From NCBI GenBank assembly GCA_963733095.1, contig CAVTBV010000013.1, positions 352,001-416,000 of the forward strand: a stretch of DNA of 64,000 bases, in the 5' to 3' direction. This stretch comes from Candidatus Bathyarchaeota archaeon. GTDB lineage: Archaea > Thermoproteota > Bathyarchaeia > Bathyarchaeales > Bathycorpusculaceae. Numbering within the stretch: position 1 is the stretch's first letter; each line of letters opens with the position of its first letter. Positions 45,177 to 64,000 of this stretch are shown one piece after another. The notes beneath the pieces were generated by a model. The model was not told the origin of the DNA and ran no database searches. It saw only the letters and a program-made list of their open reading frames with translations. Made by a program: the position numbers and the translations under genes.

Positions 45177-45253
45177 GCCGCCGTTGCACAGCCCGGTAGT
45201 GCAACTGACTGTTAATCAGTAGGTCAAAGGTTCGAGTCCTTTCGGCGGCGCCA
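45177..45253 (+). tRNA. tRNA-Asn (GTT), intronless, CCA encoded; probable provirus attachment site
   Basis: Acceptor stem GCCGCCG/CGGCGGC, anticodon arm CTGA-CTGTTAA-TCAG, TTCGAGT T-loop. Confidence 0.96.
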
Positions 45254-45286
45254 CTGATAACGCGAAAAAACTACCAGTTTTTTCGT

Positions 45287-46720
45287 TCACTGAACTGAAA
45301 CCTCCGATCTAACCAGTTGCTTTAGCTGGTCTGCCAGAAGAGACAATTGATGATTCTGGTACACTTCTTGGGTCTCAGTGATGTTTCCCCGCAACAAAGC
45401 ATCCTTGGTTAATATTTCCTCTGGGTTTTGTCCCCAAGCGCGTATGATTTCTTTAAGTTGCTCTATTCTGTTTGCTTGAGTCTTCGGTCTTATGGCTAAT
45501 CCTGCAGAAACGTACAGATTTCTTAGAGTTTCTATTCCTAAGCTTTGGACGTCTTCATAGGTGTCGATTGTCTTGCCCATAAAGTACTTGGTGATTTCAC
45601 TGTCTATTTTTGATGCACTCATCTGTGTTCTAAACCATTTCCGCAAACTATGAGTTCTTACGCTATACATCCAGCTATTTGGCAGTTTCTCTGCAACGTC
45701 TGCTGCGACGGCGATTGTGTGGACGATTTTTCTTATTGTTTTCTCGCTTACACCTAATACTTTGTAGGCGTTATGGTCGCTTCGTATGAGAGGTGATTCG
45801 TCGGTGATTTCTTCTGGTGGCGTGTATCTGCTGCCTCGTCTTCTGTCGGCGATGTACATTTTTAGCAGTTGGCTTGCTTCTGCGTTTATGAAGGTGTCGT
45901 AATCGTGGTATTTTCCCTTGGTAATTTCTGCTTCTACATGGATGTGTATGGGAATTCTGTTGGCTTCTAGGTCGTCTTTTATGTGTCGATATTTTAGTTT
46001 ACTGAAGGTTCCTTCTCTAAATCCGCCTGTTGCTATGGCTGCTATGATGAAGGCTTCGCGGACAGCTGATTTGTCTATCATTGCTGTAATTTCTTCAGGT
46101 TTTGGGGCTCGGTCTTTGTAGGCGACTTTTCTGCTCAGTCGCTCTGAGAGTTTGACATCGATGCCATTTACGTGATAGAAGGTTTTGACGGCTTTTATAC
46201 AGTTATTTACGGCGGCTGGTTTGAGGTCGTCATCTTGTAGTTCGGCGAGATAGTCGTTTAAGAATCCACAGTGGTTCTGAACTTTTATAGGGTCAGAGAT
46301 GGCGCCTTGGGGTTTTACGTCTTGGATGATTAAGTCTGGGCTGTATCCTAACCAGATAGCGTATTTTCGCACGTTAACAGAATAGATTAGGCAGCTTCTG
46401 TGGGAGCCTGAGAGATGGCGTAGAAAATGGCGGGCGAGTTTTAGCATGCTTTGGTTGTCGAATATGAAGGGAATTACGCCTGGGCGCTCGTTTAGGCAAG
46501 ATCTGATTATGTAGTCGACGAGGTCTTTTTCTTTGGCTTCCAAGATTTTTTGGAGTTGTATCTTCACTGGGTTTTTGAGCTTCCAACCAGTTAAGCTAGT
46601 GTAGATCGTGACATAATCGTCTTCGAATGTCAGTGGAAGGTTGAGGCTTTTTAGTTCTTCAATGGAGAGTTGGCGGTTTCGAGAGATAGCGGGGGCTAAA
46701 GTAGTCGTTCGCTGTATCAA
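45287..46720 (-). CDS. Tyrosine recombinase/integrase
   Basis: GGFREGT (R), ITKGK, HSLRKWF (HxxR), FMGK..DTY (Y). Confidence 0.92.
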   Translation of the reverse strand: MIQRTTTLAPAISRNRQLSIEELKSLNLPLTFEDDYVTIYTSLTGWKLKNPVKIQLQKILEAKEKDLVDYIIRSCLNERPGVIPFIFDNQSMLKLARHFLRHLSGSHRSCLIYSVNVRKYAIWLGYSPDLIIQDVKPQGAISDPIKVQNHCGFLNDYLAELQDDDLKPAAVNNCIKAVKTFYHVNGIDVKLSERLSRKVAYKDRAPKPEEITAMIDKSAVREAFIIAAIATGGFREGTFSKLKYRHIKDDLEANRIPIHIHVEAEITKGKYHDYDTFINAEASQLLKMYIADRRRGSRYTPPEEITDESPLIRSDHNAYKVLGVSEKTIRKIVHTIAVAADVAEKLPNSWMYSVRTHSLRKWFRTQMSASKIDSEITKYFMGKTIDTYEDVQSLGIETLRNLYVSAGLAIRPKTQANRIEQLKEIIRAWGQNPEEILTKDALLRGNITETQEVYQNHQLSLLADQLKQLVRSEVSVQ

Positions 46721-47229
46721 GTTTGTTGTCTCCTTGCGGAGTCTTTAGCTCCGTGAGTTTTTCGCTCCGATGGTCGGAACGCATACTCACCCTCTGGTAT
46801 TGGACGTTTGATATTTAAATGCCAGTTTGAATTTTTTTGTAATGGTCGCTGGCAGATTTTGAGTTTCTGCAGTTCCAAAACGTCGGTTTTTAGCAGGACT
46901 AAGCCTGAAGCTTTTGGGTCGCCACCGTGCAGCGTAGGCGGCTGGGCGTCTCTATCCCATGCTAAGGTTATGTAGAGTTCGCAATCGTAAACCAGCCAAC
47001 CAATGGCCTCCCTAATTTGCGGCTGCATCATTAAAGCGGAGCTGCGATTGTATAGAACATGGTCTCGATACCGAACATAAATCAACTTTTGGGGTGGGAT
47101 TTGGGAGCTGGTGGTGCCGGTGTCCTCTTTTGAGGGCAACTTACAAGATTTGGAACCGGCTTTAGTGCCAAAAACGACTTCGGAGGAGACTTGAAGGTTT
47201 GTAAGCTCAGCCATTCCCTCCCACCTCAT
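46717..47229 (-). CDS. Hypothetical proviral protein
   Basis: Overlaps integrase start; YVRYRDH..EAIGWLV beta-rich domain. Confidence 0.6.
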   Translation of the reverse strand: MRWEGMAELTNLQVSSEVVFGTKAGSKSCKLPSKEDTGTTSSQIPPQKLIYVRYRDHVLYNRSSALMMQPQIREAIGWLVYDCELYITLAWDRDAQPPTLHGGDPKASGLVLLKTDVLELQKLKICQRPLQKNSNWHLNIKRPIPEGEYAFRPSERKTHGAKDSARRQQT

Positions 47230-47487
47230 TTAGCAATCTGAAAAATCGGAAATCCCAAACAACTCAGCCAGATTCCTAAGAGCCGCCGACGCCTGCGCCT
47301 GCTTTTCTAAATCATGAATGCCTCTAATTTTGGACTCCATTTGCGCAAGTTCAGCCCTCAATTCAGCCTTCTCAACTAGCTGCAAACGGTCCTCATGTTC
47401 CCGCAGTGCAACGCCGACTTCGCTTACTATTACGCCGATTTGAGCCAGGACATCCACAAGGAGTTTTTCTCTCTTTGAATTAATCAA
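47230..47487 (-). CDS. Hypothetical coiled-coil proviral protein
   Basis: Translationally coupled in the leftward operon. Confidence 0.6.
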   Translation of the reverse strand: MINSKREKLLVDVLAQIGVIVSEVGVALREHEDRLQLVEKAELRAELAQMESKIRGIHDLEKQAQASAALRNLAELFGISDFSDC

Positions 47488-47698
47488 TCACACCTACCTC
47501 CTCGACTAAAATGGATCCATTGTTAATTTTGGCGTAGCGATGCAGAGCATACAGCATCACGTCAATTATTGTTCCGTCTCCCTTAACAGAAATGCAGCCT
47601 GCTCCCTTAGATTTCACCTTTAGTTGAACCCATCTGCTCACGATTAACTTTACGTGTGGGAGGGCTGATTCATCAAAAGTCAATTTTACCTCTCGCAA
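47480..47698 (-). CDS. Hypothetical proviral protein
   Basis: First gene of the leftward operon, GGAGG upstream. Confidence 0.55.
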   Translation of the reverse strand: MREVKLTFDESALPHVKLIVSRWVQLKVKSKGAGCISVKGDGTIIDVMLYALHRYAKINNGSILVEEVGVID

Positions 47699-47920
47699 CC
47701 ATTCATGCCTCCAAAAACGTCAGAGTTGAAGAAGTGTCTTGTTTGGGAAGTTTGCAAGAGAAACTCCGATTGGTGAGATGAGAGAAGGTTATGCGGGGAC
47801 ACATACATGCTCCCAAGGGAGAAGAAACCCTGCGAACTCTTTTTCCCCAAGATATTTTCCTTCAACTTTGCCGCCTTACCCCTACGTGGAGTTTAAAGTT
47901 TAAGAAAATTCTGTGTTCAC

Positions 47921-47995
47921 CAAAGTACAGTGTACTTTGTGAAGCTTCCGAAAGTATAGTGTACTTTGCGGGCTCTTCCAAAGTCCTGTATCTTT
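47921..47995. promoter_or_regulatory. Three palindromic operator-like boxes at 29-bp period
   Basis: CAAAGTACA-G-TGTACTTTG (47921-47939), AAAGTATAGTGTACTTT (47951-47967), degenerate AAAGTCCTGTATCTTT (from 47980). Confidence 0.7.
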
Positions 47996-48425
47996 AAAAG
48001 ACATATTCGTTTTTTTCTTCTAAGAAAAGCACCATAGCAGCAAGTTGTGTGGTTAATGCTTGGTCACTTGCTTCTCTGTTAAACTGGTCTGCATTAATTT
48101 TATCCTGGTAGAAGGCGACTTTGGCTCTGATTGTGGCCTTATAAAGTGTGACTTGGGAGCCTGTTTGGGTCTGTCTTGTGCCAACTGATTTTAGGTACCC
48201 TTGCTGGGTTAGCGCTCGTACTCTGCGGTTAACATTCGAGTATTTTGTGAACTTCAATCCTTTATTTTTCTTGACCTCTTTTGCTATGTCATAGATGACT
48301 AGAGGGCTATTTTGGAAGAGGGTTAGCAGTATTACTCGGTTTAATTTGGCTTCTCTGCCTTTGAAGATCGAAATTGTTGAGTTGTGTCTTTTTGATTTGG
48401 AAAATGTGGGGAGGCGTTTTGCTAT
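47994..48425 (-). CDS. Winged-helix DNA-binding protein (candidate proviral repressor)
   Basis: Frame stays open upstream of the listed ORF (IFKGREAKLNRVILLTL..PLVIYDIAKEV..YSNVNRRVRALTQQGYL..TLY); start uncertain (ATA 48425). Confidence 0.65.
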   Translation of the reverse strand: MAKRLPTFSKSKRHNSTISIFKGREAKLNRVILLTLFQNSPLVIYDIAKEVKKNKGLKFTKYSNVNRRVRALTQQGYLKSVGTRQTQTGSQVTLYKATIRAKVAFYQDKINADQFNREASDQALTTQLAAMVLFLEEKNEYVF

Positions 48426-48733
48426 TTTGATTGTGTCTTTATAGTTCTTGGGTGTTTTGGAGGGCCCTAAAATTAAGGGGACACCGCTCCCAAGAGTGAT
48501 TGACTAACTATTTGCATGGAATCAAAGCTGAAGTATTCAAGGGTTCCTATGTCTAAGGGGTCGAGTACCAAAACACAGTCAAGCACAATGACTACTGCTG
48601 TTGCAACTGCTGTTCCCCGGCTCTCCATAAACTCTGGAGCAAGCATGCAAGTCATAAAAGGTTAACTGAAATAAGGTTTTTTCAATATACAAGTTTAACA
48701 ATAGTTCAGAAAAAGTAATTTGTTTTTAGTAAT

Positions 48734-48988
48734 TTAAGTCTGAGGATGCTCACCATTTTGCTCACCCAACGATATTTTATTATGTTTAGCAAAGGCTGCT
48801 AGCTTGCGTTCAAGTTGGAGTATCTTTTTTTGTTGGCCTGTCAGAATAGAAATAACCATGGGCTCAAAGACGATTGGATTTGTCGCCATGCTACTCTCCG
48901 AAGCGTAATTCCTGCACATATCCATAAGGTCCTCAAACGCTTCCCTGTCCTCCTTACATAAAGTGACAATAGAAAATAGATATTTCAA
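48734..48988 (-). CDS. Hypothetical helical protein, probably an N-truncated fragment
   Basis: DREAFEDLMDMCRNYAS...PIVFEPMVISIL resembles, from memory, small archaeal proteins encoded beside PolB2. Confidence 0.4.
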   Translation of the reverse strand: MKYLFSIVTLCKEDREAFEDLMDMCRNYASESSMATNPIVFEPMVISILTGQQKKILQLERKLAAFAKHNKISLGEQNGEHPQT

Positions 48989-49046
48989 TTTATAACAAAA
49001 TTTAAATGTAATTATGTATTGTCAGGTTTAAATCAGGTGGTCGCTC

Positions 49047-49628
49047 ATGAGTTTAGATTGGAAAAAATGGTCAAAAAATGACGTACTCTTTGGAATTATC
49101 CTACCTGTAATCGCAGTTTTTGTCATTGTATTAATTTCAAAACTTCAGTCGCTAGTCGGTGGAGGTCCTGGAATCGTTTTTGGGCTTACGATGGAAATAC
49201 TGGAGCTTGTCGTTATAGTAGGTGTTCCCTTAGCCCTTGGTTTACTATGGAATCAATGGGCAGGCGGCGCCTCAGGCTTCCTAATGGGTACATTCTACGC
49301 ATTGTACTGGGCAAACAGCTTCCATGACACATCAGGTTCAGGAACAGTCCTTTTAGCATATATCCTAAGTCCAATGTTAATCGGATACATGGCTGGGGCT
49401 CTAAATAAGCGGTCAGATAATTTCAAAAGGCTACTTATTGCAGGCATTGTCGATGCTACAATCGGAGGCATAGTTATGTTCAGTATATTCCAAATGTCGC
49501 CTGCAAACGTAGTAACAGGTGTGACCGGATTTGCATTGACAGTTTTGACGCGGATGCTTGCCGCTGTACTAACAGCTGTTGTAGTCAAAATATTCTTCTG
49601 GTACGGCATGGGTGCTCAAAAACAGTAA
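49047..49628 (+). CDS. Hypothetical integral membrane protein
   Basis: About 6 TM helices; GGTGG upstream. Confidence 0.7.
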   Translation: MSLDWKKWSKNDVLFGIILPVIAVFVIVLISKLQSLVGGGPGIVFGLTMEILELVVIVGVPLALGLLWNQWAGGASGFLMGTFYALYWANSFHDTSGSGTVLLAYILSPMLIGYMAGALNKRSDNFKRLLIAGIVDATIGGIVMFSIFQMSPANVVTGVTGFALTVLTRMLAAVLTAVVVKIFFWYGMGAQKQ

Positions 49629-49825
49629 ACAACATCAAAGAAAACATCGCTGTTTCATTGATAAACATCGCCTTCATGGTCACTGCAGCTTTGCTTGGCT
49701 ACTTAGGGCTTGTCACAGGTTTACTGCTAAACGAAGTAAGTGTATTATTAGTGATCGGAAACGCGCTAAGACCATTGACTACCAAAAACAAATTCGACGC
49801 GGCAAACAAAAAACAGATGGAGTAA
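49625..49825 (+). pseudogene. C-terminal remnant of heavy-metal P1B-type ATPase
   Basis: Manual translation NIKENIAVS...GLLLNEVSVLLVIGNALR matches the last two TM helices of CadA/ZntA-type pumps. Confidence 0.65.
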
Positions 49826-49828
49826 GTG

Positions 49829-50206
49829 CTATATTGAGCGCCCTTTATCTGTAATTTTATATATCTTCCAGTTTTTCTTTTTGTAAGAAATAATGAGCCC
49901 TGCTTCTTCCAAAACCATAAGATGGTAAGACAGGCGCGAATCCGAAATTTTTATCAAAACTTTGATAACACAAGGACATAAATCGCATTGCCTAATAGCC
50001 TTCAAAATCGTCAGCCTTGTTTTGTCTGACAGAATTCGGTGCAGTTTAACTTCTGTGTCAACTTCGCCAGGTTTTATCGCACCTAAAATTCGGTCCAATC
50101 CGCCTATTTCAGCGATTGCCTCTGTGACTTCCTGAGGCAGAGCATCATTTTTGATTTTTTCTGAATCAGGGCAATTGCATTCTGTTACCATTTGGTGTCT
50201 ACACAA
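49829..50206 (-). CDS. ArsR/SmtB family regulator
   Basis: LSDKTRLTIL, DLCPC, SRLSYHLMVLEEAGLI. Confidence 0.85.
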   Translation of the reverse strand: MCRHQMVTECNCPDSEKIKNDALPQEVTEAIAEIGGLDRILGAIKPGEVDTEVKLHRILSDKTRLTILKAIRQCDLCPCVIKVLIKISDSRLSYHLMVLEEAGLIISYKKKNWKIYKITDKGRSI

Positions 50207-50343
50207 AAACTACAACTGGACACTAATAAAAAGTAGTAGTTGAGCACCGCCTCAAATCTCCGTAAACTCGCACTTATTGCAGAGGCATCCAAAACAGTGA
50301 TGTGCACTTTCTCCTAATCAAGTTTAAGAATGCGAAAATGTTA

Positions 50344-50567
50344 ATGAGCGATTACGGTCCAGACTGCAAAAATGAATCAATTGTAACCGTAGATACGAAA
50401 GGCAGATTGTTCTCCCAAAAAATCCGAGAAAGGGAGCTGGTTTCAAGCCAAATAGCAAATTAGCTCTCCTATCTTTTGAAAAGGGAGGCGAAACATGTTG
50501 TGTTATAGTGATGAAGGCAGAAAGCCTATAGGAAGCCGTGAAAAAAACCTTAAGCTCACAGGCATAG
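50344..50567 (+). pseudogene. Degraded AbrB-fold protein resembling hgcAB-associated HgcC
   Basis: Pieced across frameshifts: CKNESIVTVDTKG/QIVLPK/AGFKPNSKLALLSFEKGGETCCVIVMKAE, with an internal TAG. Confidence 0.55.
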
Positions 50568-50610
50568 CGGAAAAAGAAGAATTCGAAACACTAAAAGCAA
50601 ACTAACAAGG

Positions 50611-50961
50611 CTATTTTTTAGCCTCGCAGTCATAACAGACATTAATTTTTCGATTTGTCCAATAGTGTTTTCCGCATACTTCACACGTAGTCTTCCAAAT
50701 CATGCCCTTATCTTCTTCCTTCACCGGCGGATATGAAGCATTTCTTGACGGGAAAACTATCGCCTTCTTGTGGCAAAGAGGCGCACATGCTGAACAACCT
50801 TTGACACATTTAGTTGGGTATGCAACCACCGCTTTTCCTTCTAGAAAAGTGAAAACGCGGTTTGGGCAGTATTCAATGCAGCGTGGTTTTCCAGTGCCGA
50901 CACAGCCATCACACTTGTCAGAAAAAACTGTAGGAAACCAAGGGACATCTAAGTCAGACAT
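50611..50961 (-). CDS. 4Fe-4S ferredoxin with C-terminal Cys motif
   Basis: PWFPTV..KCDGC..CIEYCP, CVKGCSACAPLC, CEVC..CYDC. Confidence 0.8.
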   Translation of the reverse strand: MSDLDVPWFPTVFSDKCDGCVGTGKPRCIEYCPNRVFTFLEGKAVVAYPTKCVKGCSACAPLCHKKAIVFPSRNASYPPVKEEDKGMIWKTTCEVCGKHYWTNRKINVCYDCEAKK

Positions 50962-51017
50962 AAATATCCTCCGTTTGTCTTGTGAATTTTCGGTTTAAAT
51001 TCTTTTGTATTGAAATG

Positions 51018-54177: not shown

Positions 54178-54193
54178 TCAAACTATCCTCTGT

Positions 54194-55336: not shown

Positions 55337-55360
55337 GCGACTTTTAAAAATGACCTGTGA

Positions 55361-57010: not shown

Positions 57011-57109
57011 AGGCCCGAATTTCCGTTTCTGCGAATTATTGATGAGAACACGATTAACCCCAATGTCCATCCGCATTGTGAGTGCCTTCTAATTCGGGTT
57101 AAAGCTTAA
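57011..57109 (+). pseudogene. C-terminal remnant of head morphogenesis (Mu gpF/SPP1 gp7-like) protein
   Basis: EFPFLRIIDENTINPNVHPHCECLLIRV* resembles the HPNCRC motif; lies upstream of protease/capsid gene. Confidence 0.55.
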
Positions 57110-57145
57110 CACATTGCGAAGTAATAGAGGAAAGAAAGTCAAGCT

Positions 57146-58399: not shown

Positions 58400-58429
58400 A
58401 TAAAAAACTATTCGTCAAACTTTCTTGAC
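58400..58429 (-). promoter_or_regulatory. Cargo-gene promoter with GTCAA-N6-TTGAC palindrome
   Basis: ATAAAAAACTATTCGT identical to 60597-60612; GTCAAACTTTCTTGAC at 58414-58429. Confidence 0.7.
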
Positions 58430-58540
58430 TAAGACAGAGCTAACAATTAGAACATAAGTCAAGGCATCAACGTCTAACCTTCATTGTGAATATCTTCTGA
58501 TTAGGGTTTCAGCTTAACAGTACCTAGAGAGGAAAAAAGT

Positions 58541-59686
58541 TTGTCAAAACCGCATAGCCGTGAGTTAGTCTTCATTGCGGGTTTGCATCGGCTTGATGCT
58601 TCCAACAAGAAGGCAGTTTTCTATTTGATGAATACTAGCCGGAATCGTAATCGCTGGGGAGTCACGCAGAAAGCGCTGGATGAGGCTTTGCCGTCGCTGT
58701 TAAAGAAGCCTTTGGGCATGGGTAAGGACTATAAGCTGGGGCATTTTGCAGACGATGAATGCATGAATGTTGGGTTGTTTTCGGCTTTTGAGAATAAAGG
58801 TAACTATGCATTGGGCACCGTCGACATAACAGATGATAAAGCCTTAAGCGATGTTGAAGCAGTCGAAGCCGTAACAATCCTCGAACAAGTCTTAGGCTAC
58901 GCATGGCCCAACTACAACTTGAGAGCGATTTGCCGCACCATCCCAATGGATAACTTGCAAGAACGCATAGACATCGCAACTAAATCGACAGGTCAACGCA
59001 AAGTTAAACCAATGCAGGAAGCCGAAATCAGCAAAGACGCATTCGCACCAGTAAACTTTGACCTCTGGAAGAACGTTGTGCACGTTGCAGTTGCCGATGA
59101 GGCAGGCATGAAATCAGCACATAACATACTTCAGCTCCAAACTGAAGCCGCTGGCAGAGATCTAGGTCGCATGGAAAACCTCGACATCAAAGACATTGCC
59201 GAAGCCTGCACCGAAAAAACATCCAGCACCCCATACGTGGATTGGGCAGCAAAATCAAGCGGCATAAGCACAAACGACCCATTCGACGCTATCATTCCCG
59301 CAATCGATTACATCCAGGGAAAAGGCTGGCCAGTTGACTTCATGGCATTGCACCAAACAATCTACAGCAAATTCATCCGCAACACTTACGTCCGAGAATT
59401 GGTTCATGCGGGCATTGCAAGTTTGGGTCCAAACGGCGGCGCCTTCACATTACCAGGTTACCCAACCGTTAAGGTTGTCACAGACTATGCATTAACAGAA
59501 ACTCCGGATGGCACTCATGGTCCACTGATCGGCAGTTCAGTTGCTCCAGGCTTGGTTTTCGGTGAAGGCCCAACAATGGCAGCACAGTACAGAGACGAAG
59601 CGAAAGGCTTTGACGGCTACATTATCCGCAAATGGCAAGAGCCAAAAGTAGTCATACAAGACGCTATCACAAAAATCTGCACCTAA
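58541..59686 (+). CDS. Major capsid protein (HK97-like), fused to a prohead-protease-like N-terminus
   Basis: Position upstream of neck genes; capsid-like segments (DPFDAII.AI..I...G..VDFMALH; YRDEAKG.DGYIIR); N-terminus LMNTSRNRNRWGVT resembles protease starts. Confidence 0.65.
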   Translation: MSKPHSRELVFIAGLHRLDASNKKAVFYLMNTSRNRNRWGVTQKALDEALPSLLKKPLGMGKDYKLGHFADDECMNVGLFSAFENKGNYALGTVDITDDKALSDVEAVEAVTILEQVLGYAWPNYNLRAICRTIPMDNLQERIDIATKSTGQRKVKPMQEAEISKDAFAPVNFDLWKNVVHVAVADEAGMKSAHNILQLQTEAAGRDLGRMENLDIKDIAEACTEKTSSTPYVDWAAKSSGISTNDPFDAIIPAIDYIQGKGWPVDFMALHQTIYSKFIRNTYVRELVHAGIASLGPNGGAFTLPGYPTVKVVTDYALTETPDGTHGPLIGSSVAPGLVFGEGPTMAAQYRDEAKGFDGYIIRKWQEPKVVIQDAITKICT

Positions 59687-59815: not shown

Positions 59816-60571
59816 TCAAAGAAAGTTCTTTGTAATCGCTGTTTGCCCAGCAGTTGCGTTAACGGTAAAGGTTGTAATGTAGTCTGTTTTTATCGAAATG
59901 TTGCCTGCTGTTGGACCCAAATAGTAAGTTACTGTGATGTTATAGGTATGCTCATTTATCAATACAACCGAATAATCTCCGATAGCACTGTTACCACCTA
60001 TGATACCACTTTGCGGAGGATAATTGTAAGGAAAACTAAAAGAATTGTTAGCACCTGTTTGAATGTCAGTGAATTGAATTCTAATCAAACTTGATGGGAA
60101 GGGTTGGGATAAAGGTATACTGTTTATTTTGCCTGATACAGTTATGCCAGCACTTAGTGGATAAACGAAGACAACAAATGTAGCGTTCTCTGCTTGTCCA
60201 TTGTCTAATGCTGTTACAGTGACTGTGTAGTTTCCTGTTGGTGTTGAATCAGGCACATAAACGGTTAGAATACTGGTGAAGTTTGATATTCCTCTCGCAG
60301 GTTCAAAGGTGCAGTTGACACCGCTTGAACCAGTATTACTGCTTAGCGTTATATTTTCAGCTTTACCTATTGAGGTTAAGTTGACTTGGGCTTGTAGATT
60401 GTTTCCTCGAATAACTTCTGTTTGGTTTAAAGACACATTTACGCTAAGTTTTGTAATTGACTGATCAGTTGTAGGTTGACGATAAAAAACAATCAATGAA
60501 GCAACCACAAGCACAACTATGATTACCGTAACGACCATTAAATTTCTACGCCTAGTTGAAGTTTGAACCAT
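59816..60571 (-). CDS. Membrane-anchored Ig-like secreted protein (cargo)
   Basis: N-terminal TM; STPTGNYTVTVTA Ig-like strand; many NxT/S sequons. Confidence 0.75.
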   Translation of the reverse strand: MVQTSTRRRNLMVVTVIIVVLVVASLIVFYRQPTTDQSITKLSVNVSLNQTEVIRGNNLQAQVNLTSIGKAENITLSSNTGSSGVNCTFEPARGISNFTSILTVYVPDSTPTGNYTVTVTALDNGQAENATFVVFVYPLSAGITVSGKINSIPLSQPFPSSLIRIQFTDIQTGANNSFSFPYNYPPQSGIIGGNSAIGDYSVVLINEHTYNITVTYYLGPTAGNISIKTDYITTFTVNATAGQTAITKNFL

Positions 60572-60596: not shown

Positions 60597-60649
60597 ATAA
60601 AAAACTATTCGTTAAAAAACTTGACAGTTGGCAGTCAAAGTTTCTTGAC
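60597..60649 (-). promoter_or_regulatory. Cargo-gene promoter with GTCAA-N6-TTGAC palindrome (copy 2)
   Basis: 16-nt identity to 58400-58415; GTCAAAGTTTCTTGAC at 60634-60649 plus a degenerate box at 60611-60625. Confidence 0.7.
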
Positions 60650-60686: not shown

Positions 60687-61034
60687 TTGTCTATTAGGTA
60701 TGGTTGTTTGGTTAATGTTCAGGTTATGGCAGCCGTGACTGTCAATGATGGCGTGAGTTCTGCCGATCCTGAGTTAACTATGTACTTGGGTAAGGCCTGC
60801 GATTTCATTAACGACTCCCTCAAGGGATTTGTTTCGGTGCCGCTGGATCCTGTGCCTGCAGTTGTCGATACGATTGCAGAATTTTATGCTTCGGGACTCT
60901 ATCTTGCCCGAAACAATCTTGCTGACGGCCAGACACAGCATCCCAACGTGGTCTTGGCAGAAAAGAAGCTCTCTGAGTATAGGGCGAGCCTTCGCCGGAG
61001 CTATAAACTGTTCAGTAATTCTGATGAGGAGTAG
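60687..61034 (+). CDS. Putative head-tail adaptor protein
   Basis: Helical 115 aa; A.DFINDSL..VSVPL..VP.VV; gene order. Confidence 0.6.
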   Translation: MSIRYGCLVNVQVMAAVTVNDGVSSADPELTMYLGKACDFINDSLKGFVSVPLDPVPAVVDTIAEFYASGLYLARNNLADGQTQHPNVVLAEKKLSEYRASLRRSYKLFSNSDEE

Positions 61035-61500
61035 TGGCGCCTTGTCTGTTCGGGTTAGGGTGAATTTCACTAGGGTCGAGAGTCTAGTCAGTGGGGTAGC
61101 TGCTCGGCAGAGGCTTGTTTTTGGTGAATGGCAGCGACAGGGATCCGCCGAGGCTGAACATGTGTTGCGGGCTAATACGCCTGTTCGCACGGGGTTTCTG
61201 CGTGATAGTATCGTTAAGCAGTTGACGCCTTCGGGCTTCACAGTTTACCCCACAGCATCCTATGCATCAGCAGTAGAGCATGGGACTGGTCCGCACACGA
61301 TTTTTCCTTCACATGCTAAGGTTCTCTGTTTCAGGACGGGCAATCTTGGTTGGGCGTTTGGTGAAGGCGCAATATTTGCTAAGCGGGTTGAGCATCCGGG
61401 GTTTGCTGGTCGCTTCTTCATACGCAAAAGCCGTGATGAGTTGCGTGGCAAGTTAAGAGATTTGTATTTGATGCTTTGGATTAGGATGCAAAATGAGTAA
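61024..61500 (+). CDS. HK97 gp10-like neck/tail-completion protein
   Basis: TPVRTGFLRDSI, YASAVEHGTGPH, VEHPG; start moved to ATG 61024. Confidence 0.8.
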   Translation: MRSSGALSVRVRVNFTRVESLVSGVAARQRLVFGEWQRQGSAEAEHVLRANTPVRTGFLRDSIVKQLTPSGFTVYPTASYASAVEHGTGPHTIFPSHAKVLCFRTGNLGWAFGEGAIFAKRVEHPGFAGRFFIRKSRDELRGKLRDLYLMLWIRMQNE

Positions 61501-61915
61501 CGGAATACTAGCTATAAAGACGGCTGTTAAGAGTGTTCTTGCGGACGCTTCTTTAGGTCAGGTTTCTAAGTGGCTCTCAGCTGAGCCTTCGCCTTCTGCT
61601 TATCCTGGATTATGTTTTGGGTGGGTTGAGTGGAGCGGCGGTCCAGTTGTTCAAGCAAATTTTGACCGCAAAAAAGCGGTTGATGAATTCTTCATAGTCA
61701 TAATTACGAAGAACGCTGATGCCGATCAAGCAGAAAGTGACGGATTGTCACTAGCCGAGAAGGCTGAAGCTTTGTTCTGTGCTGATCGTAAGTTGGGTGG
61801 TGCCGTAACTGATAGTTTGGTTACGTTGCGTGAGAAGCAAAAAGTGTTTGACGGCAAGTTCAGCGTTAATGCTGTTCGTTTGACGCTACAGACTTGGCGA
61901 TGGATGACTGGTTAG
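61493..61915 (+). CDS. Putative tail terminator protein
   Basis: Overlaps the gp10-like gene; YP..., DRKLGGAV; gene order. Confidence 0.6.
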   Translation: MSNGILAIKTAVKSVLADASLGQVSKWLSAEPSPSAYPGLCFGWVEWSGGPVVQANFDRKKAVDEFFIVIITKNADADQAESDGLSLAEKAEALFCADRKLGGAVTDSLVTLREKQKVFDGKFSVNAVRLTLQTWRWMTG

Positions 61916-62044: not shown

Positions 62045-62848
62045 ATGCGTAGTCTGGGCAAATATCTGTTGTTATGCTTAGTTATTCTCTCAGCATCTAG
62101 CCTGTGGATGGTAAAACTCTCTGATGCTCAAGCCACACCTAATCCTGCTGCTACATTTGTCACTGGTGTTATATCCTCAGACACGACATGGACCAAGGTT
62201 AATAGTCCCTACAATATAACAGGCGCGGTAATAGCAAAAGGCGTAACTGTGACGATTGAACCAGGAACGGTTATTTATGTCAATGCTTTCGAAGGATTAG
62301 GCGTAATTGGGACACTTCGCGCAATAGGCACAAGTAATGAACCCATTACCCTTAACGGAGACTTTCGCATGAGAGCACCCGTTTTCGGAAGCAGTTCTTA
62401 CAACGGAATTTTATCGTTTAGCAATGAAAGCCAACCATGGGATGACAAAACAGGAACAGGATGCATCATCGAAAACACGAACATTGTTTCCTTGAGCGTC
62501 TATATTCATAATGCAACCATAAAATTGAACAATAACGTTTTCAGCGGGTACTACGAATACCATAGGCTTTGGATAGAAGGTGGTAACTCGATAGTCACCA
62601 ATAATAGAATATTAGCGGATACAATCGGAGCGGATAATAATTTTCCCCAATCTGGCAATAATACAGTTATAGGTTCTGGCGGCGTCAGTTATACACCGAA
62701 TCCAGTCAGTTATACTCCGAATCCAACTGCAACTCCTTCCCCTTCAGTTCCAGAGTTTTCTTGGTTAACAATCCTACCCATGCTTCTCGCCATACCAATT
62801 GTTCTGGTCATAATCAGAAAAACCGTTTCTAGAAACATTACTTTGTAG
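62045..62848 (+). CDS. Secreted beta-helix protein with PEF-CTERM-like sorting signal (cargo)
   Basis: Signal peptide, DTTWTKVNSPY..VTIEPG, VPEF plus TM plus basic tail. Confidence 0.78.
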   Translation: MRSLGKYLLLCLVILSASSLWMVKLSDAQATPNPAATFVTGVISSDTTWTKVNSPYNITGAVIAKGVTVTIEPGTVIYVNAFEGLGVIGTLRAIGTSNEPITLNGDFRMRAPVFGSSSYNGILSFSNESQPWDDKTGTGCIIENTNIVSLSVYIHNATIKLNNNVFSGYYEYHRLWIEGGNSIVTNNRILADTIGADNNFPQSGNNTVIGSGGVSYTPNPVSYTPNPTATPSPSVPEFSWLTILPMLLAIPIVLVIIRKTVSRNITL

Positions 62849-62979
62849 GATTGAAGCCAGCTTAAAAAGTAGTTTGGCATAAGGCGATTTTAGCTAACAC
62901 ACCTGTTAATCGATTATTTTGGTAACTGCCATTTTGGCATTACAACTAAAAATTTAGAAATTTTGGAGGAAAAAAAATT

Positions 62980-63380
62980 ATGTCTAGTCCTGTCCCTGTT
63001 TTGGGTAGAGATGCCCGTTTAATAAAATCCAGTGTAGCCATCGGTTATGGCAAAAGCATTAAGGTATCCGCGGATGCTGAAGAAATAAAAGTTTACAGTA
63101 TGGATTCTTTGCAGCCTGCTATCACTGCTGCTGGGAAGCAGTCTTTTAAGTGGTCCTGTGATCGCCTTTTCACCGATAAAACCTATTTGGCGCTGCTGAT
63201 GGCTGGCACCAAGTTTGATTTGGTGTTTGCTCCCGAGGGCGATGCTGAAGGCGATACGATTGAGACTTGGAAGAACTGTTCAGTATTTTGCATTGTGAGC
63301 GTTCAGCCGGCGAAGACGACGGTGTTCTGGAAAGCATCAGTGGTTCTGCTGAAACTGTAGAGTTCCCAGCTCCATCATAG
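62980..63380 (+). pseudogene. Tail tube (major tail) protein with a 1-nt frameshift
   Basis: Extra T near 63287; corrected frame continues LHCERSAGEDDGVLESISGSAETVEFPAPS* to TAG 63378-63380, next to the following RBS. Confidence 0.6.
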
Positions 63381-63386
63381 GAGAAA

Positions 63387-63980
63387 TTGTTCTTGTCTGA
63401 AAAGAAGATGAGTTCTGCTGCAGCTGCCAAGTTGCCTGAGAATGAGGCAAAAATTGCAGAGTTTAAGAGGCGTGCTGAAGCTGACGATGCCCGAAATGAA
63501 GCAGTTGCTAAGCTATTCGATCCTGTTGCATTGCTGCAGCGAGCTGGCCAAATCCATGAAGCTCAACATCCAACTTTGGGCTTGATTCGTTATGGTGAGT
63601 TGGTGATCGCTGACTCGGAAATCATCAATAAATGCAAAAACAAAGCAGATCGCAACGCCATGAGCATCTACTTGATGCTGAAAAAAGCCTATTCTAACCT
63701 ACCTGATTATACCCCTGAGAATATTAGCGAATTTAACTGTTCTTTTCCAATGTTGGAAGCTTCAGAACTGATAAAATTCCTAAATGAACAGCCGGGTTTT
63801 TTGTTAACCAAATCGCCAACTGGATCAAGCACAGACTCAGATGCCGAAAACATCGGTTTAATTCTCTCTACTTTTCCCCAATTCAATTTCAGTAGCTTGC
63901 GGGAGCTCACAGTTTTTCAGTTTAACTATTTGGTCGCCTGGGCAAGACTGCATCAGGTTAAGGTGAGGCAGATTGGCTGA
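63387..63980 (+). CDS. Putative tail assembly chaperone
   Basis: Lies between tail tube and tape measure; slippery heptamer G GGT TTT at 63794-63800. Confidence 0.6.
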   Translation: MFLSEKKMSSAAAAKLPENEAKIAEFKRRAEADDARNEAVAKLFDPVALLQRAGQIHEAQHPTLGLIRYGELVIADSEIINKCKNKADRNAMSIYLMLKKAYSNLPDYTPENISEFNCSFPMLEASELIKFLNEQPGFLLTKSPTGSSTDSDAENIGLILSTFPQFNFSSLRELTVFQFNYLVAWARLHQVKVRQIG

Positions 63981-64000
63981 TTCTGACATAGAAATCAATC
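63973..64000 (+). CDS. Probable start of tape measure protein (cut by window)
   Basis: AGGTGAGG RBS, TTG start, (M)ADSDIEIN; inferred from gene order only. Confidence 0.4.

What the first reader, a model, noticed from the sequence alone, without database searches (positions are those of the whole stretch)
45177..64000. tRNA-Asn provirus whose virion operon alternates with single cargo genes
Seen: order is GNAT | PNPOx(-) | head-morphogenesis remnant | adhesin(-) | capsid | Ig-like protein(-) | adaptor, gp10-like, terminator | PEF-CTERM protein(+) | tail tube, chaperone, probable tape measure. Cargo ORFs look intact and sit at gene boundaries. Viral genes show deletions and frameshifts, and no terminase or full portal is visible. 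Three of four inserts are cell-surface proteins. Inference: a defective archaeal virus serving as a scaffold for a cassette-like array of surface genes, more regular than typical scattered morons.
Basis: partly seen in the sequence, partly recalled or inferred. Interest (0 to 1): 0.78.

Follow-up and report, generated by a model that had tools for sequence, protein, structure and literature searches.

The report
Defective archaeal provirus with surface-gene morons
A broken tailed-virus remnant in an archaeal genome belongs to a provirus family in which the same few gaps between virion genes are filled, copy by copy, with different host-like cell-surface genes, a notably regular archaeal case of the phage 'moron' phenomenon.

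Summary
The region is the remnant of an HK97-fold tailed archaeal provirus. An 8.7-kb deletion removed the terminase and most of the portal. A 1.3-kb deletion fused the gene upstream of the capsid gene to the capsid gene. Tail genes carry frameshifts.

Six related elements in four genomes of the same genus share an 85-95% identical backbone. They carry unrelated genes at the same junctions: after the ATPase/GNAT, portal|next gene, capsid|adaptor, terminator|tube. Of 36 junction ORFs, 23 have terminal hydrophobic segments, against 23% genome-wide. Several carry a host-type palindromic upstream element. A more distant relative has none of these inserts.

- The GNAT is viral, not cargo.
- PNPOx sits inside a broken gene, not at a boundary.
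- 'Ig-like' and 'PEF-CTERM' did not pass family models.
- The integrase beside tRNA-Asn is inverted relative to the virion genes. It is separated from them by a genus-wide host-type metal-resistance cluster, so the region is composite.
- Cargo also occurs in a copy with every backbone ORF open, so it is a trait of the virus lineage rather than of decay.

No cassette machinery was found. This is a regular, surface-biased variant of morons.

The parts
45177..45253 (+). tRNA-Asn (GTT) with encoded CCA. Its last 16 nt are the att core used by a family member in genome G223.
   Evidence: ARAGORN. In G223b a 16-nt direct repeat lies at the tRNA 3' end and at 38342-38357. No distal copy was found in the window's own genome.
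45287..46720 (-). Tyrosine-recombinase integrase. It is 64-69% identical (aa) to the integrases of related proviruses, and its ortholog in G223 is 81% identical (nt). Its strand is opposite to the virion genes, unlike the family's canonical layout.
   Evidence: Pfam Phage_integrase E 3.6e-4, below cut-off. phrog_216 E 1.2e-7. XerA_Arch E 1.4e-11, below cut-off. Homology.
46717..48988 (-). Integrase-proximal module. It holds the conserved integrase-adjacent ORF 46717-47229 (cluster cl36) and small element-specific ORFs.
   Evidence: cl36 is 31% identical to G265a and 56-57% identical to the ORFs next to the int(-) genes of G223 and G274. Window 47200-48980 gave no listed match in 119 other genomes of the genus.
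48980..55344 (.). Host-type metal/arsenic-resistance cluster: membrane protein, ArsR, ferredoxins, P-type ATPase 51018-53429, LMW phosphatase/ArsC-type 54510-54935, ArsR 54986-55336. It is not part of the virus.
   Evidence: Pfam. Parts are present in 117 of 119 other genus genomes. The longest match is G236:C7, 82% over window 49618-55343.
55400..55756 (+). 5'-truncated viral ABC-type ATPase remnant (ORF 55472-55756). This is the left edge of the provirus remnant.
   Evidence: phrog_11143 E 6.4e-24, profile positions 120-196 of 357. Nucleotide homology to relatives starts at 55400-55409.
55716..56357 (+). Viral GNAT (second part of phrog_11143) fused by an ~8.7-kb deletion to the last 44 codons of a portal ORF (56222-56359).
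   Evidence: phrog_11143 E 4.3e-32; Pfam Acetyltransf_1 E 2e-11. Window 56222-56359 matches G265a 12871-13008 at 94%, whereas 55400-55967 matches G265a 3669-4207. Portal fragments by tblastn.
56427..56828 (-). PNPOx-like cargo gene. It replaces 274 bp of the ORF that follows the portal. G236a holds a different gene at the same spot.
   Evidence: Pfam PNPOx_N E 8.9e-11. Gap mapping. G236a has a cl23 gene there. No paralog in the genome.
57015..57111 (+). Its end (57074-57111) is duplicated at 58482-58519.
   Evidence: 86-91% identical to relatives. tblastn hit to portal ORF residues 518-547. Duplication scores 20.5 against a shuffle maximum of 13; alignment.
57146..58366 (-). Cargo at the portal|next-gene junction: a 406-aa repeat protein with an N-terminal hydrophobic segment and a C-terminal TM plus basic tail (adhesin-like).
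   Evidence: No Pfam or NCBIfam hit. 859 homologs at E<=1e-5. Some are named 'predicted outer membrane repeat protein' or carry PF02415/PF13229, and named sources are Bathyarchaeota/Bathyarchaeia/Nitrososphaerota MAGs. Hydrophobic ends.
58400..58429 (-). Upstream element of the adhesin-like gene. It consists of the palindrome GTCAAGAAAGTTTGAC and an identical 15-nt A/T-rich box (read on the gene's - strand; window coordinates 58414-58429 and 58400-58414). The same pair lies upstream of the 59816-60571 gene.
   Evidence: There are 31 genome sites against 2-6 in shuffles, and 22 of 31 lie within 150 nt upstream of an ORF start.
58482..58519 (+). Second, diverged copy (30 of 38 identical) of the 3' end of the ORF that follows the portal. 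It flanks the cargo insert on the right.
   Evidence: G236a shows the same flanking duplication at the same junction.
58541..59686 (+). Fusion ORF. It joins the first ~108 codons of the 349-aa gene upstream of the capsid gene (protease/scaffold position) to the HK97-fold major capsid protein from about residue 38. The 1.3-kb deletion joint lies at 58846-58866, at a short microhomology.
   Evidence: Split matches to two ORFs in relatives. Window 58482-58866 matches G265a 13341-13733 and 58846-59701 matches 15032-15885. Joint sequence. Capsid family fold: pLDDT 91.3, best PDB match HFTV1 capsid protein at E 1.8e-13; profile E 8.8e-13.
59816..60571 (-). Cargo at the capsid|adaptor junction: a 251-aa protein with an N-terminal TM anchor. 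'Ig-like' is unconfirmed.
   Evidence: DUF4469 E 0.0028, below cut-off. Atlas lead 0.82 to CARDB/NPCBM_assoc clusters. A 51% identical paralog lies on contig C14. Metagenome contigs bridge both joints.
60597..60649 (-). Upstream element of the 59816-60571 gene: the palindrome GTCAAGAAACTTTGAC (60634-60649) and the same 15-nt box (60597-60611).
60687..61034 (+). Head-tail adaptor-position gene, intact (115 aa against 112 aa in G265a, no indels).
   Evidence: Only a weak Mu Gp36 hit on the relative's copy (E 0.004).
61042..61500 (+). HK97 gp10-like / Neck1 tail-completion gene, intact.
   Evidence: phrog_5 E 1.5e-15. Pfam HK97-gp10_like 23.3 bits, above the 21.4-bit cut-off. 89% aa identity to G265a.
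61493..61915 (+). Tail-terminator-position gene, intact.
   Evidence: Weak phrog_4204 hit, E 0.004. 95% aa identity to G265a.
62045..62848 (+). Cargo at the terminator|tube junction: a 267-aa protein with a signal-like N-terminus (by eye; the crude hydrophobicity test flagged only the C-terminus) and a PEF...TM...basic C-terminus. Its last ~120 nt, together with the following intergenic stretch up to 62962 (62725-62962 in all), are shared with the different cargo of G223a.
   Evidence: No TIGR03024 or Pfam hit. 88% identity over 256 nt with G223a J3. G265a has only 39-50 bp at this junction. An exosortase/archaeosortase-family gene is present in the genome.
62980..63360 (+). Tail-tube-position gene with a +2-nt frameshift at 63279 that replaces the last ~25 residues.
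   Evidence: 98% identical over 103 aa to G265a. Indel. The 2 nt are absent in contigs of runs X2 and X3. No profile hit.
63387..63980 (+). Tail-chaperone-position gene with +1 nt at 63835 relative to G265a.
   Evidence: No profile hit.
63973..64000 (+). Start of the tape-measure gene. It continues beyond the window to window-equivalent 65313. The tail genes reach about 70045, followed by a surface-gene-rich variable region.
   Evidence: phrog_167 E 2.3e-6. ORFs of L001. Laminin_G_3 domain in a tail gene, E 5.4e-18.

Best explanation
Window 55400-64000, continuing to about 70045 in window-equivalent coordinates, is the inactivated virion module of a temperate HK97-fold tailed archaeal virus. 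Seven copies of this lineage were found in five genomes of one genus; the host is probably Bathyarchaeia. In this lineage the transcription-unit boundaries of the morphogenesis region act as recurrent landing sites for extra genes (morons). The sites are: after the ATPase/GNAT, portal|next gene, capsid|adaptor, terminator|tube, and after the tail fibres.

The extra genes are mostly complete host-type transcription units for membrane-anchored or secreted proteins. They often lie on the opposite strand, and several carry a palindromic upstream element that also precedes host surface-protein genes.

Inferred mechanism: new genes enter by illegitimate recombination at the A/T-rich terminator/promoter gaps, sometimes duplicating 26-50 bp of the upstream gene's 3' end. 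They are then swapped between viruses by homologous recombination in the highly similar flanking virion genes. They are expressed from the lysogen and change the host's surface. The window's copy later lost its terminase, portal, left arm and its own attachment sites by microhomology deletions and frameshifts.

The integrase next to tRNA-Asn and the metal-resistance cluster are separate pieces of a composite island.

Shown: homology, junction maps, enrichment, fold, deletions. Inferred: the mode of entry, expression, and benefit to host or virus.
For: VIRAL IDENTITY
- Capsid family: profile against PDB matches the HFTV1 HK97-like capsid protein at E 8.8e-13. The AF2 model has pLDDT 91.3. The Foldseek top hit is HFTV1 at E 1.8e-13, TMq 0.61. 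Of 115 homologs, 19 match Pfam Phage_capsid_4 and 13 match Phage_capsid.
- The terminase in relatives matches phrog_2 at E 3.6e-30.
- gp10/Neck1 matches phrog_5 at E 1.5e-15.
- One complete copy (G223b) is bounded by tRNA-Asn and a 16-nt repeat.

SAME JUNCTIONS, DIFFERENT CARGO
- The backbone is 85-95% identical at nucleotide level, yet junction contents are unrelated.
- Capsid|adaptor is occupied in 7 of 7 elements, by 6 different gene sets.
- Portal|next gene is occupied in 3 of 7 elements.
- Terminator|tube is occupied in 2 of the 3 elements that have that tail module.
- The slot after the GNAT is different in all 6 elements that retain it, spanning 3.2-5.4 kb with sharp conserved edges.
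- The more distant G317 (capsid 58% identical) has tight junctions with no inserts.
- Metagenome contigs show insert-free portal|next-gene and terminator|tube joints, and an adhesin-like gene placed directly upstream of the adaptor.

SURFACE BIAS
- 23 of 36 junction ORFs of 100 aa or more have a terminal hydrophobic segment, against 551 of 2416 genome ORFs (odds ratio 6.0, p 2e-7).
- 9 of 36 have one at both ends, against 93 of 2416.

HOST-TYPE REGULATORY ELEMENT
- The palindrome occurs at 31 genome sites against 2-6 in shuffles.
- 22 of 31 sites lie within 150 nt upstream of an ORF.
- 12 of those 22 ORFs have a hydrophobic N-terminus, against 460 of 2448 overall.
- The palindrome precedes 8 of 36 junction cargo ORFs. 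Within the elements it otherwise lies only beside the tail-distal surface-type genes (clusters cl1, cl15, one singleton) or, across a divergent cargo promoter, within 150 nt of the adjacent backbone gene.

OTHER SUPPORT
- An oligo-T run follows the capsid stop codon in all 7 elements.
- A flanking duplication of the upstream gene's 3' end is present in 4 of 14 junction instances.
- Cargo pairs show dN/dS of 0.15-0.30.
- Virion-gene dS is 0.32-0.66, against 1.95 for the host flank gene.
- Decay of the window copy is documented.
Against: - 10 of 14 junction instances show no flanking repeat above shuffles, so the mode of entry is not established.
- Portal|next-gene inserts occur only in copies whose portal region is damaged (window, G236a, G274a). 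The two most degraded copies (window, G236a) carry the most inserts. Some insertions may therefore post-date inactivation.
- 13 of 36 junction ORFs have no terminal hydrophobic segment, including PNPOx, a 1104-aa ORF and a 344-aa ORF.
- The hydrophobicity test and the ORF calling are crude scripts of my own. The elements are related, so the p-values overstate.
- Frameshifts in relatives may be assembly errors, or may mean that no copy is truly active.
- The intact cargo ORFs in the window are not significantly more than neutral decay would leave. By my own rough estimate from the frameshift counts (about 5 breaks in ~11.5 kb of viral DNA), about 1.5 breaks are expected in the 3.2 kb of cargo, which gives P(0) of about 0.2.
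- The portal, the 349-aa gene, the tube and the chaperone have no significant family or PDB match.
Confidence: 0.62

Rival explanations
1. Graveyard model. The surface genes were inserted into already dead proviruses, because decaying prophages tolerate insertions. The virus never carried them. The junction pattern only reflects where A/T-rich intergenic DNA is available.
For: - Portal|next-gene inserts are seen only in copies with a damaged portal region.
- The window and G236a, the most degraded copies, have the most inserts.
- PNPOx replaces part of a viral ORF.
- Most copies show at least one split backbone gene.
- G350 has a 12-kb block of surface genes where the terminase region should be.
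Against: - The capsid|adaptor slot is filled in all 7 elements, including G274b with every backbone ORF open.
- The slot after the GNAT has sharp conserved edges and a similar size (3.2-5.4 kb) but different contents in 6 elements.
- Virion genes show strong purifying selection (dN/dS 0.04-0.17) and a dS far below the host flank.
- The same adhesin-like gene occurs at two different junctions in environmental variants.
Confidence: 0.2
2. Dedicated cassette system. A site-specific mechanism inserts single-gene cassettes at defined sites at the 3' ends of virion genes, duplicating the target in the way integration into a tRNA 3' end does. The array would then be integron-like rather than a set of ordinary morons.
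For: - 4 of 14 junction instances are flanked by 26-50-bp direct repeats of the upstream gene's 3' end. They occur at three different junction types and in three elements.
- Insert boundaries fall within about 15 bp of the stop codon and at the next start codon.
- The cargo families cl1, cl52 and cl23 recur at different junction types.
- Two cargo genes of the window share an identical 15-nt box plus palindrome.
Against: - No recombinase other than the element integrase is present in or near the virion module.
- 10 of 14 instances have no flanking repeat.
- The palindrome is a genome-wide upstream element of host genes, not a cassette end.
- Cargo has mixed orientation and its own upstream elements.
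- The repeat copies are diverged (30 of 38 identical). This fits recombination between two virus variants.
Confidence: 0.1
3. Assembly artefact. The alternation of viral and host-like genes is a chimeric join of contigs from different organisms in a metagenome bin.
For: The genome is in 16 contigs with 2% estimated contamination. No sequencing run holds more than 14% of the sampled words of window 55001-64000.
Against: - Contigs of independent runs bridge capsid end to cargo (59657-59933), cargo to adaptor (60512-60816, 60503-60826), and adhesin-like gene to next gene (57250-58586).
- Six related elements in four other assemblies show the same architecture.
- GC content is uniform over the region.
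Confidence: 0.03

Closest known systems
Morons of temperate tailed bacteriophages (HK97/lambda-type, as defined by Juhala, Hendrix and colleagues; recalled, not read here)
   Same: Single extra genes sit between two genes that are adjacent in related genomes. They often lie on the opposite strand with their own upstream element and a T-run downstream. They differ between otherwise near-identical genomes, and many encode membrane or surface proteins thought to act in the lysogen.
   Different: The host is archaeal. Up to five recurrent slots exist, three of them inside the head-to-tail morphogenesis block. Cargo is strongly biased towards anchored surface proteins. Several genes carry an upstream palindrome shared with host surface-protein genes. 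Expression and any conversion phenotype are untested.
Head-tailed proviruses of Bathyarchaeia and other archaea next to tRNA and integrase genes (PMC11705971, passages read; PMC10848311, passages read)
   Same: Integrase-bearing HK97-fold tailed proviruses of about 30-40 kb, bounded by direct repeats at tRNA genes. One relative here (G223b) is bounded by tRNA-Asn and a 16-nt repeat.
   Different: The passages I read describe defence and auxiliary metabolic genes, not junction-specific surface-gene inserts. I could not tell whether this family is among their proviruses, because their supplementary tables were not seen. The host class here is inferred only from the names of homologs.
Haloferax tailed virus 1 (HFTV1) major capsid protein, PDB 8qpq
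   Same: It is the best structural and profile match of the capsid family.
   Different: Only about 10% sequence identity. No match of the capsid protein in 50,697 phage/virus records by tblastn. One IMG/VR scan found no relative.
Integron gene-cassette arrays
   Same: An ordered series of single, exchangeable genes at fixed positions.
   Different: No integron integrase, attI or attC was found. Cargo has its own upstream elements and mixed orientation, and is interleaved with essential virion genes.

Membership tests
Tailed HK97-fold virus (Caudoviricetes-type) provirus | HK97-fold major capsid protein | tested here: met
   Family profile against PDB HFTV1 capsid protein, E 8.8e-13. AF2 pLDDT 91.3 and Foldseek E 1.8e-13. 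The window's copy lacks the first ~37 residues and is fused to another gene.
Tailed HK97-fold virus (Caudoviricetes-type) provirus | Large terminase subunit | tested here: not met
   Absent from the window and from the whole genome (tblastn with both terminase types). Present in relatives (phrog_2 E 3.6e-30). The window copy is therefore a remnant.
Tailed HK97-fold virus (Caudoviricetes-type) provirus | Portal protein | tested here: inconclusive
   The relatives' 460-547-aa ORF gives only weak portal hits (phrog_2662 E 0.0093; PDB portal proteins E 0.07 and 0.42). The window keeps two fragments.
Tailed HK97-fold virus (Caudoviricetes-type) provirus | Tail and connector genes | tested here: met
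   gp10/Neck1 phrog_5 E 1.5e-15 and tape measure phrog_167 E 2.3e-6. Laminin_G_3 tail protein E 5.4e-18. Tube, chaperone and terminator are assigned by position only or by weak hits.
Tailed HK97-fold virus (Caudoviricetes-type) provirus | Integrase with flanking att repeats | tested here: inconclusive
   An integrase is present at 45287-46720, but on the strand opposite to the family layout and about 8.7 kb from the virion remnant. No distal att was found. The feature is met in relative G223b.
Phage morons | Extra gene between two genes that are adjacent in related genomes | tested here: met
   G265a, G317 and metagenome contigs show the insert-free joints.
Phage morons | Own promoter and terminator | tested here: inconclusive
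   An upstream palindrome plus an A/T-rich box lies 56-71 nt before two cargo starts. An oligo-T run lies at the junction. There are no transcript data, and no RNA run was listed.
Phage morons | Nucleotide composition unlike the surrounding virus | tested here: not met
   The GC of 1-kb windows over 55-64 kb is 0.40-0.48, like the rest of the window and like the contig means of 0.42-0.45. This is a coarse test only.
Integron-like cassette array | Integron integrase with attI beside the array, and attC at cassette ends | tested here: not met
   No recombinase lies in the virion region. No shared boundary motif was found, and 10 of 14 junction instances lack repeats. The palindrome is a genome-wide upstream element.
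PEF-CTERM / archaeosortase substrates | Match to the PEF-CTERM sorting-domain model TIGR03024 | tested here: not met
   No hit at E<=0.01 for 62045-62848. A neighbouring gene beyond the window scores E 0.0089 at 16.2 bits, under the 23-bit cut-off. The P-E-F, TM, basic-tail pattern is visible by eye.
PEF-CTERM / archaeosortase substrates | Archaeosortase gene in the genome | tested here: met
   PF09721 Exosortase_EpsH at 46.3 bits, over the cut-off, at C1:33047-33844. The subfamily was not determined.

The most novel reading that the evidence does not exclude
A lineage of archaeal (probably Bathyarchaeia) tailed viruses has evolved fixed 'landing pads' at the operon boundaries of its morphogenesis genes. 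These pads capture whole host surface-protein transcription units, complete with the operator of a host surface regulon, and shuttle them between species. The virus would then be a dedicated vehicle for diversifying the archaeal cell surface. Dead copies would persist as surface-gene islands. Entry would occur by a target-duplicating, site-preferring mechanism rather than by random illegitimate recombination.
Probability: 0.2. Interest if true: 0.8.

Novelty: new variant of a known kind. Interest (0 to 1): 0.52.

Why it matters
Little is known about what temperate archaeal viruses give their hosts. This family offers a tractable comparative system. Near-identical virion backbones carry different host-type surface genes at the same few junctions. 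Virion genes are much younger than the host genomes they sit in, with synonymous divergence of about 0.3-0.7 against about 2. If the cargo is expressed, these viruses move and reshuffle cell-surface proteins among species of an abundant, largely uncultured sediment archaeal group. The shared palindromic upstream element also points to a testable surface-protein regulon. If the cargo is not expressed, the region is simply a decaying composite island.

Tried and rejected
TOOLS THAT GAVE NO ANSWER
- The search for related loci on genome contigs gave no answer three times. Organism names and further loci from that collection were therefore not obtained.
- The IMG/VR scan with the window's fused capsid ORF found no relative.

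SEARCHES THAT FOUND NOTHING USEFUL
- tblastn of the capsid protein against 50,697 phage records: no match.
- The first AF2 run, with an 8-sequence alignment, failed (pLDDT 32.9). It was replaced by a 115-sequence alignment.
- The 349-aa gene upstream of the capsid gene has no protease support. Pfam and PHROGs gave nothing relevant, and the PDB profile search gave only coiled-coil noise. 'Protease/scaffold' is therefore a positional label. The invariant His68 and Ser114 of alignment A4 resemble the HK97 protease catalytic pair only by my recollection.
- The MCR family search was negative. The AmoA search was uninformative because its controls did not ring. Alba was found four times, so the genome is archaeal. 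The host class rests only on names of homologs.

SEQUENCING RUNS
- No RNA holder was listed, so nothing can be said about expression.
- All listed runs hold 14% or less of the sampled words.
- Parts of the region without contig cover are not interpreted.

REJECTED IDEAS
- A distal att copy of the tRNA: none found.
- A second integrase, or left-arm genes elsewhere in the genome: none found.
- The palindrome as a cassette recombination site: rejected because it is a genome-wide upstream element.
- Selection on the window's cargo inferred from intact ORFs alone: rejected as not significant (my rough estimate, see the Against line).

LITERATURE
- Two full-text searches were made. Passages of four papers were read.
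- Nothing on junction-specific surface-gene inserts in archaeal tailed proviruses was seen.
- This is not an exhaustive search. The supplementary tables of PMC11705971 and PMC10848311 were not seen and may list members of this family.

Full report
WHAT IS AT THE COORDINATES

The window is G000:C13:352001-416000 of a 2.84-Mb, 16-contig genome. The genome is archaeal, with four Alba genes. No MCR was found.

ARAGORN finds one tRNA, tRNA-Asn(GTT), at 45177-45253. The ORFs to its right fall into four blocks.

(i) Integrase module, 45287-48988. All ORFs but one short one lie on the minus strand.
- The integrase is a tyrosine recombinase: phrog_216 E 1.2e-7, with Pfam and NCBIfam hits below their cut-offs.
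- Next to it is a conserved integrase-adjacent ORF, followed by small ORFs.

(ii) Metal/arsenic-type resistance cluster, about 48980-55344.
- It encodes ArsR, ferredoxins, a P-type ATPase, an LMW phosphatase and a second ArsR.
- Parts of it occur in 117 of 119 other genomes of the genus at 67-85% identity.
- G236:C7 matches window 49618-55343 at 82% in a single stretch.
- It is therefore host-type DNA, not virus.

(iii) Virion-gene remnant interleaved with other genes, 55400 to the window end.

(iv) Beyond the window (L001).
- The tape measure, tail genes and fibre genes run to window-equivalent ~70045.
- They are followed by about 10 kb rich in anchored surface proteins and small gene pairs.

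ARE THE STRUCTURAL CALLS REAL?

- ATPase/GNAT. The ORFs at 55472-55756 and 55716-56357 match consecutive parts of one viral family, phrog_11143 (E 6e-24 and 4e-32). The 'GNAT' is therefore viral.
- gp10-like. It matches phrog_5 (Neck1) at E 1.5e-15 and passes the Pfam cut-off.
- Tape measure. It matches phrog_167 at E 2.3e-6.
- Tail protein. One carries Laminin_G_3 (E 5.4e-18).
- Capsid ORF. It had no Pfam or PHROG hit. A profile of its family found 350 representatives at E<=0.001.
  - Of 115 aligned homologs, 19 match Phage_capsid_4 and 13 match Phage_capsid.
  - The profile hits the HFTV1 'HK97 gp5-like major capsid protein' at E 8.8e-13.
  - With that alignment AF2 gives pLDDT 91.3. The best PDB fold matches are HFTV1 (E 1.8e-13, TMq 0.61) and many phage capsids and encapsulins.
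  - An earlier model from 8 sequences failed.
- Terminase. It is confirmed in relatives (phrog_2 E 3.6e-30).
- Portal, the 349-aa gene before the capsid gene, tube and chaperone. These remain positional or weak calls.

RELATIVES

The capsid ORF matched 10 of 301 sampled genomes of the order, counting the window's own genome; 8 of the 9 others belong to the window's own genus.

In G265, G236, G274 and G223 the window's ORF matches two separate ORFs. Residues 1-~130 match a 349-351-aa ORF, and residues 102-381 match a 317-aa capsid gene that is 96-98% identical.

I fetched six elements: G265a, G223a, G223b, G274a, G274b and G236a. I compared them by blastn and by all-against-all blastp of ORFs called with my own script.

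They share this backbone:
left-arm genes | ATPase/GNAT | J0 | small genes, TerS?, TerL (two types), portal, a 114-aa ORF | J1 | 349-aa gene, 152-aa gene, capsid | J2 | adaptor, gp10, terminator | J3 | tube, chaperone, tape measure, tail genes (or an alternative tail module from J2 on) | a 69-aa membrane protein and a variable surface-gene region | four small genes, integrase.

- G265a ends with its integrase next to tRNA-Lys.
- G223b lies between tRNA-Asn and a 16-nt repeat of its 3' end, 35.2 kb apart.

STATE OF THE WINDOW'S COPY

Measured against G265a:
- An 8.7-kb segment (G265a 4207-12871) is missing between window 55967 and 56222. This joins the GNAT ORF to the last 44 codons of a portal ORF and removes J0, the terminase and most of the portal.
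- A 1.3-kb segment (G265a 13733-15032) is missing at 58846-58866. The joint lies at a short microhomology, and the loss fuses the 349-aa gene to the capsid gene.
- PNPOx replaces 274 bp of the 114-aa ORF.
- The tube has +2 nt at 63279, which are absent in contigs of two metagenome runs.
- The chaperone has +1 nt at 63835.
- The hub gene is split in two and a fibre gene is split in three.
- The genome holds no terminase, no left-arm gene and no second integrase of this type.
- No distal copy of the tRNA 3' end exists.

IS IT A 'tRNA-Asn PROVIRUS'?

Only loosely.
- In the family, the integrase is co-oriented with the virion genes and lies at the far end of the element (G265a, G223b). In the window it is on the opposite strand and lies upstream.
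- The sequence that follows the window's tRNA is the same sequence that in G223b follows the attR repeat and leads into an orthologous minus-strand integrase (81% nt identity). In G223 and G274 such a minus-strand integrase starts a second, different element.
- The host-type metal cluster lies between the integrase module and the virion remnant.

The simplest reading is a composite: the remnant of one integrated element at the tRNA, host-type DNA, then a truncated provirus. An internal inversion of a single provirus that took flanking DNA with it is not excluded.

THE CARGO PATTERN

They do.

- J2 (capsid|adaptor) is occupied in all 7 elements by 6 unrelated gene sets.
  - window: 251 aa (-)
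  - G265a: 344 aa (+)
  - G223a: 417-aa PQQ-type beta-propeller (-), Pfam E 3e-45
  - G223b: 221-aa protein with five hydrophobic segments (-)
  - G274a: 206 aa (-)
  - G274b: 201 + 385 aa (-)
  - G236a: 110 aa (-)
- J1 is occupied in 3 of 7 elements.
  - window: 406 aa (-)
  - G236a: 428-aa NosD/beta-helix protein (-), Pfam E 1e-22
  - G274a: 468-aa beta-helix protein (+)
- The spot where the window holds PNPOx holds a different gene in G236a.
- J3 is occupied in 2 of the 3 elements that have this tail module. The window and G223a share only 62725-62962 there: the last ~120 nt of the window's gene plus the intergenic stretch before the tube (88% identity).
- J0 differs in all 6 elements that retain it. 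Its conserved edges span 125-190 bp and its size is 3.2-5.4 kb.

Insert boundaries lie about 11-15 bp after the capsid stop codon, just after a conserved oligo-T run, and at the next start codon.

More distant relatives:
- G317 (capsid 58% identical, left arm 86-92%) is compact, with no inserts at J1-J3.
- G350 (capsid 59% identical) has none at J1 or J2.
- G052, G180 and G064 have a large same-strand ORF after the capsid gene.

Metagenome contigs from marsh, wetland and sediment runs show:
- an insert-free J1 joint (57115->58540)
- an insert-free J3 joint (61905->62972, weak)
- an adhesin-like gene joined directly to the region upstream of the adaptor (58432->60632, in three runs)
- contigs that bridge the window's own J2 and J1 joints

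The last point argues against a chimeric assembly at those two junctions.

WHAT THE CARGO IS

- Of 36 junction ORFs of 100 aa or more in the 7 elements, 23 have an N- and/or C-terminal hydrophobic segment. The genome background is 551 of 2416 (odds ratio 6.0, p 2e-7). Nine have both, against 93 of 2416. The predictor is crude and the elements are related.
- Inside the virion block, 12 of 17 such ORFs lie on the opposite strand.
- The window's 406-aa protein has 859 homologs at E<=1e-5. Named ones come from Bathyarchaeota/Bathyarchaeia/Nitrososphaerota MAGs. Some are called 'predicted outer membrane repeat protein' or carry Chlam_PMP or Beta_helix domains.
- The 251-aa protein has a 51% identical paralog elsewhere in the genome.
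- The 267-aa protein ends in a PEF/TM/basic tail but does not match TIGR03024. An exosortase/archaeosortase-family gene is present in the genome.
- Pairs of shared cargo show dN/dS of 0.15-0.30.

A HOST-TYPE UPSTREAM ELEMENT

The two minus-strand cargo genes of the window share a palindrome and an identical 15-nt A/T-rich box 56-71 nt before their starts. The palindrome is GTCAAGAAASTTTGAC.
- With 2 or fewer mismatches it occurs at 31 genome sites, against 2-6 in five shuffles.
- 22 of the 31 sites lie within 150 nt upstream of an ORF of 100 aa or more.
- 12 of those 22 ORFs have a hydrophobic N-terminus, against 460 of 2448 overall (odds ratio 5.2, p 2e-4).
- In the 7 elements it precedes 8 of 36 junction cargo ORFs. 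Otherwise it lies only beside the tail-distal surface-type genes (clusters cl1, cl15, one singleton) or, across a divergent cargo promoter, within 150 nt of the adjacent backbone gene.

The cargo therefore looks like complete host-type transcription units.

HOW IT PROBABLY WORKS

The slots coincide with transcription-unit boundaries. One of them, J2, is also the breakpoint where alternative tail modules are exchanged: G274b keeps a remnant of the other adaptor there.

Four of 14 junction instances are flanked by 26-50-bp direct repeats of the upstream gene's 3' end. These are window J1, G236a J1 and J1a, and G223b J2. In the window the two copies differ at 8 of 38 positions, and each resembles a different relative. 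This suggests recombination between virus variants. The other 10 instances show no repeat.

I infer two steps. Genes enter by illegitimate recombination at these gaps. They then spread and are replaced by homologous recombination in the flanking genes, which are 85-95% identical.

Synonymous divergence also points to a recently mobile virus. Virion genes of the window and G265a differ by dS 0.32-0.66. A host flank gene of G000 and G223 differs by dS 1.95. Even the window's truncated capsid part has dN/dS of 0.04. Inactivation was therefore late.

Expression in lysogens and any benefit are inference only. Candidates for a benefit are altered adhesion, receptor masking and superinfection exclusion.

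COMPARISON WITH WHAT IS KNOWN

The pattern matches phage morons (definition recalled, not read here). Extra genes lie between genes that are adjacent in relatives, with likely signals of their own.

It fails the integron criteria. There is no integron integrase, attI or attC.

Head-tailed Bathyarchaeia proviruses at tRNA genes are in print (PMC11705971 and PMC10848311, passages read). In two full-text searches and in the passages I read I saw no description of junction-specific surface-gene inserts in archaeal tailed proviruses. Supplementary tables were not seen.

VERDICT

The regularity is real, and it is a property of the virus lineage. However, the region is a composite, the 'scaffold' idea is not needed, and no cassette machinery is evident. 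I rate it a new variant of a known kind, of moderate interest.

Noticed in passing
window 48980-55344: A metal/arsenic-type resistance cluster (ArsR, ferredoxins, P-type ATPase, LMW phosphatase, ArsR) lies between the integrase module and the virus remnant. Parts of it occur in 117 of 119 other genomes of the genus, often more than once per genome. ORF 53914-54177 looks like a degenerate duplicate of the ferredoxin at 53510-53791.
   Followed up: partly
L001:11040-11249 and L001:16197-16406 (window-equivalent 73040-73249 and 78197-78406), plus a partial copy at window-equivalent 77488-77627: A 69-aa membrane protein gene (cluster cl13) marks the end of the tail module in relatives. It occurs two and a half times to the right of the window. 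It is 94-97% identical (aa) even in G350, whose capsid protein is only 59% identical, which makes it the most conserved gene of these elements. Its function is unknown.
   Followed up: partly
own genome, 31 sites (e.g. window 58414, 60634; window-equivalent 71119, 71167): The palindrome GTCAAGAAASTTTGAC lies 40-110 nt upstream of many ORFs with hydrophobic N-termini. It is a candidate operator of a surface-protein regulon in this genus.
   Followed up: partly
L023:3375-4459 and the equivalent in all relatives; window 55472-56357: The ATPase and GNAT parts match one PHROG profile (357 positions). In every element they are two overlapping ORFs in different frames (227 + 144-151 aa). This could be a conserved programmed frameshift or two genes; it was not resolved.
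   Followed up: no
G223:C14 (loci L033-L035) and G274:C7 (L027, L028, L037): In both genomes a complete-looking provirus is followed directly by a second minus-strand integrase with its adjacent ORF, which starts a different element. This is a tandem array at one att site. In G274 the second element is about 20 kb of minus-strand genes with large ORFs.
   Followed up: partly
relatives, junction J2 and the terminase region: The family is mosaic. It has two unrelated large-terminase types (clusters cl28 and cl24) and two alternative tail modules that are exchanged at the capsid|adaptor junction. G274b keeps a remnant of the other adaptor's 5' end.
   Followed up: partly
L001:11277-11803 and L001:15651-16087 (beyond the window): Two small gene pairs look by eye like toxin-antitoxin modules (RelE/ParE-like with a ribbon-helix-helix partner; HicA/HicB-like). 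They lie among the surface genes to the right of the tail module. No family search was run.
   Followed up: no
L062/L063 (G317:C5), positions 30244-37644 of the joined locus: The compact relative G317 carries three large ORFs (820, 610 and 1039 aa) after its tail and lysis region. They may be a restriction or defence system. They were not examined.
   Followed up: no
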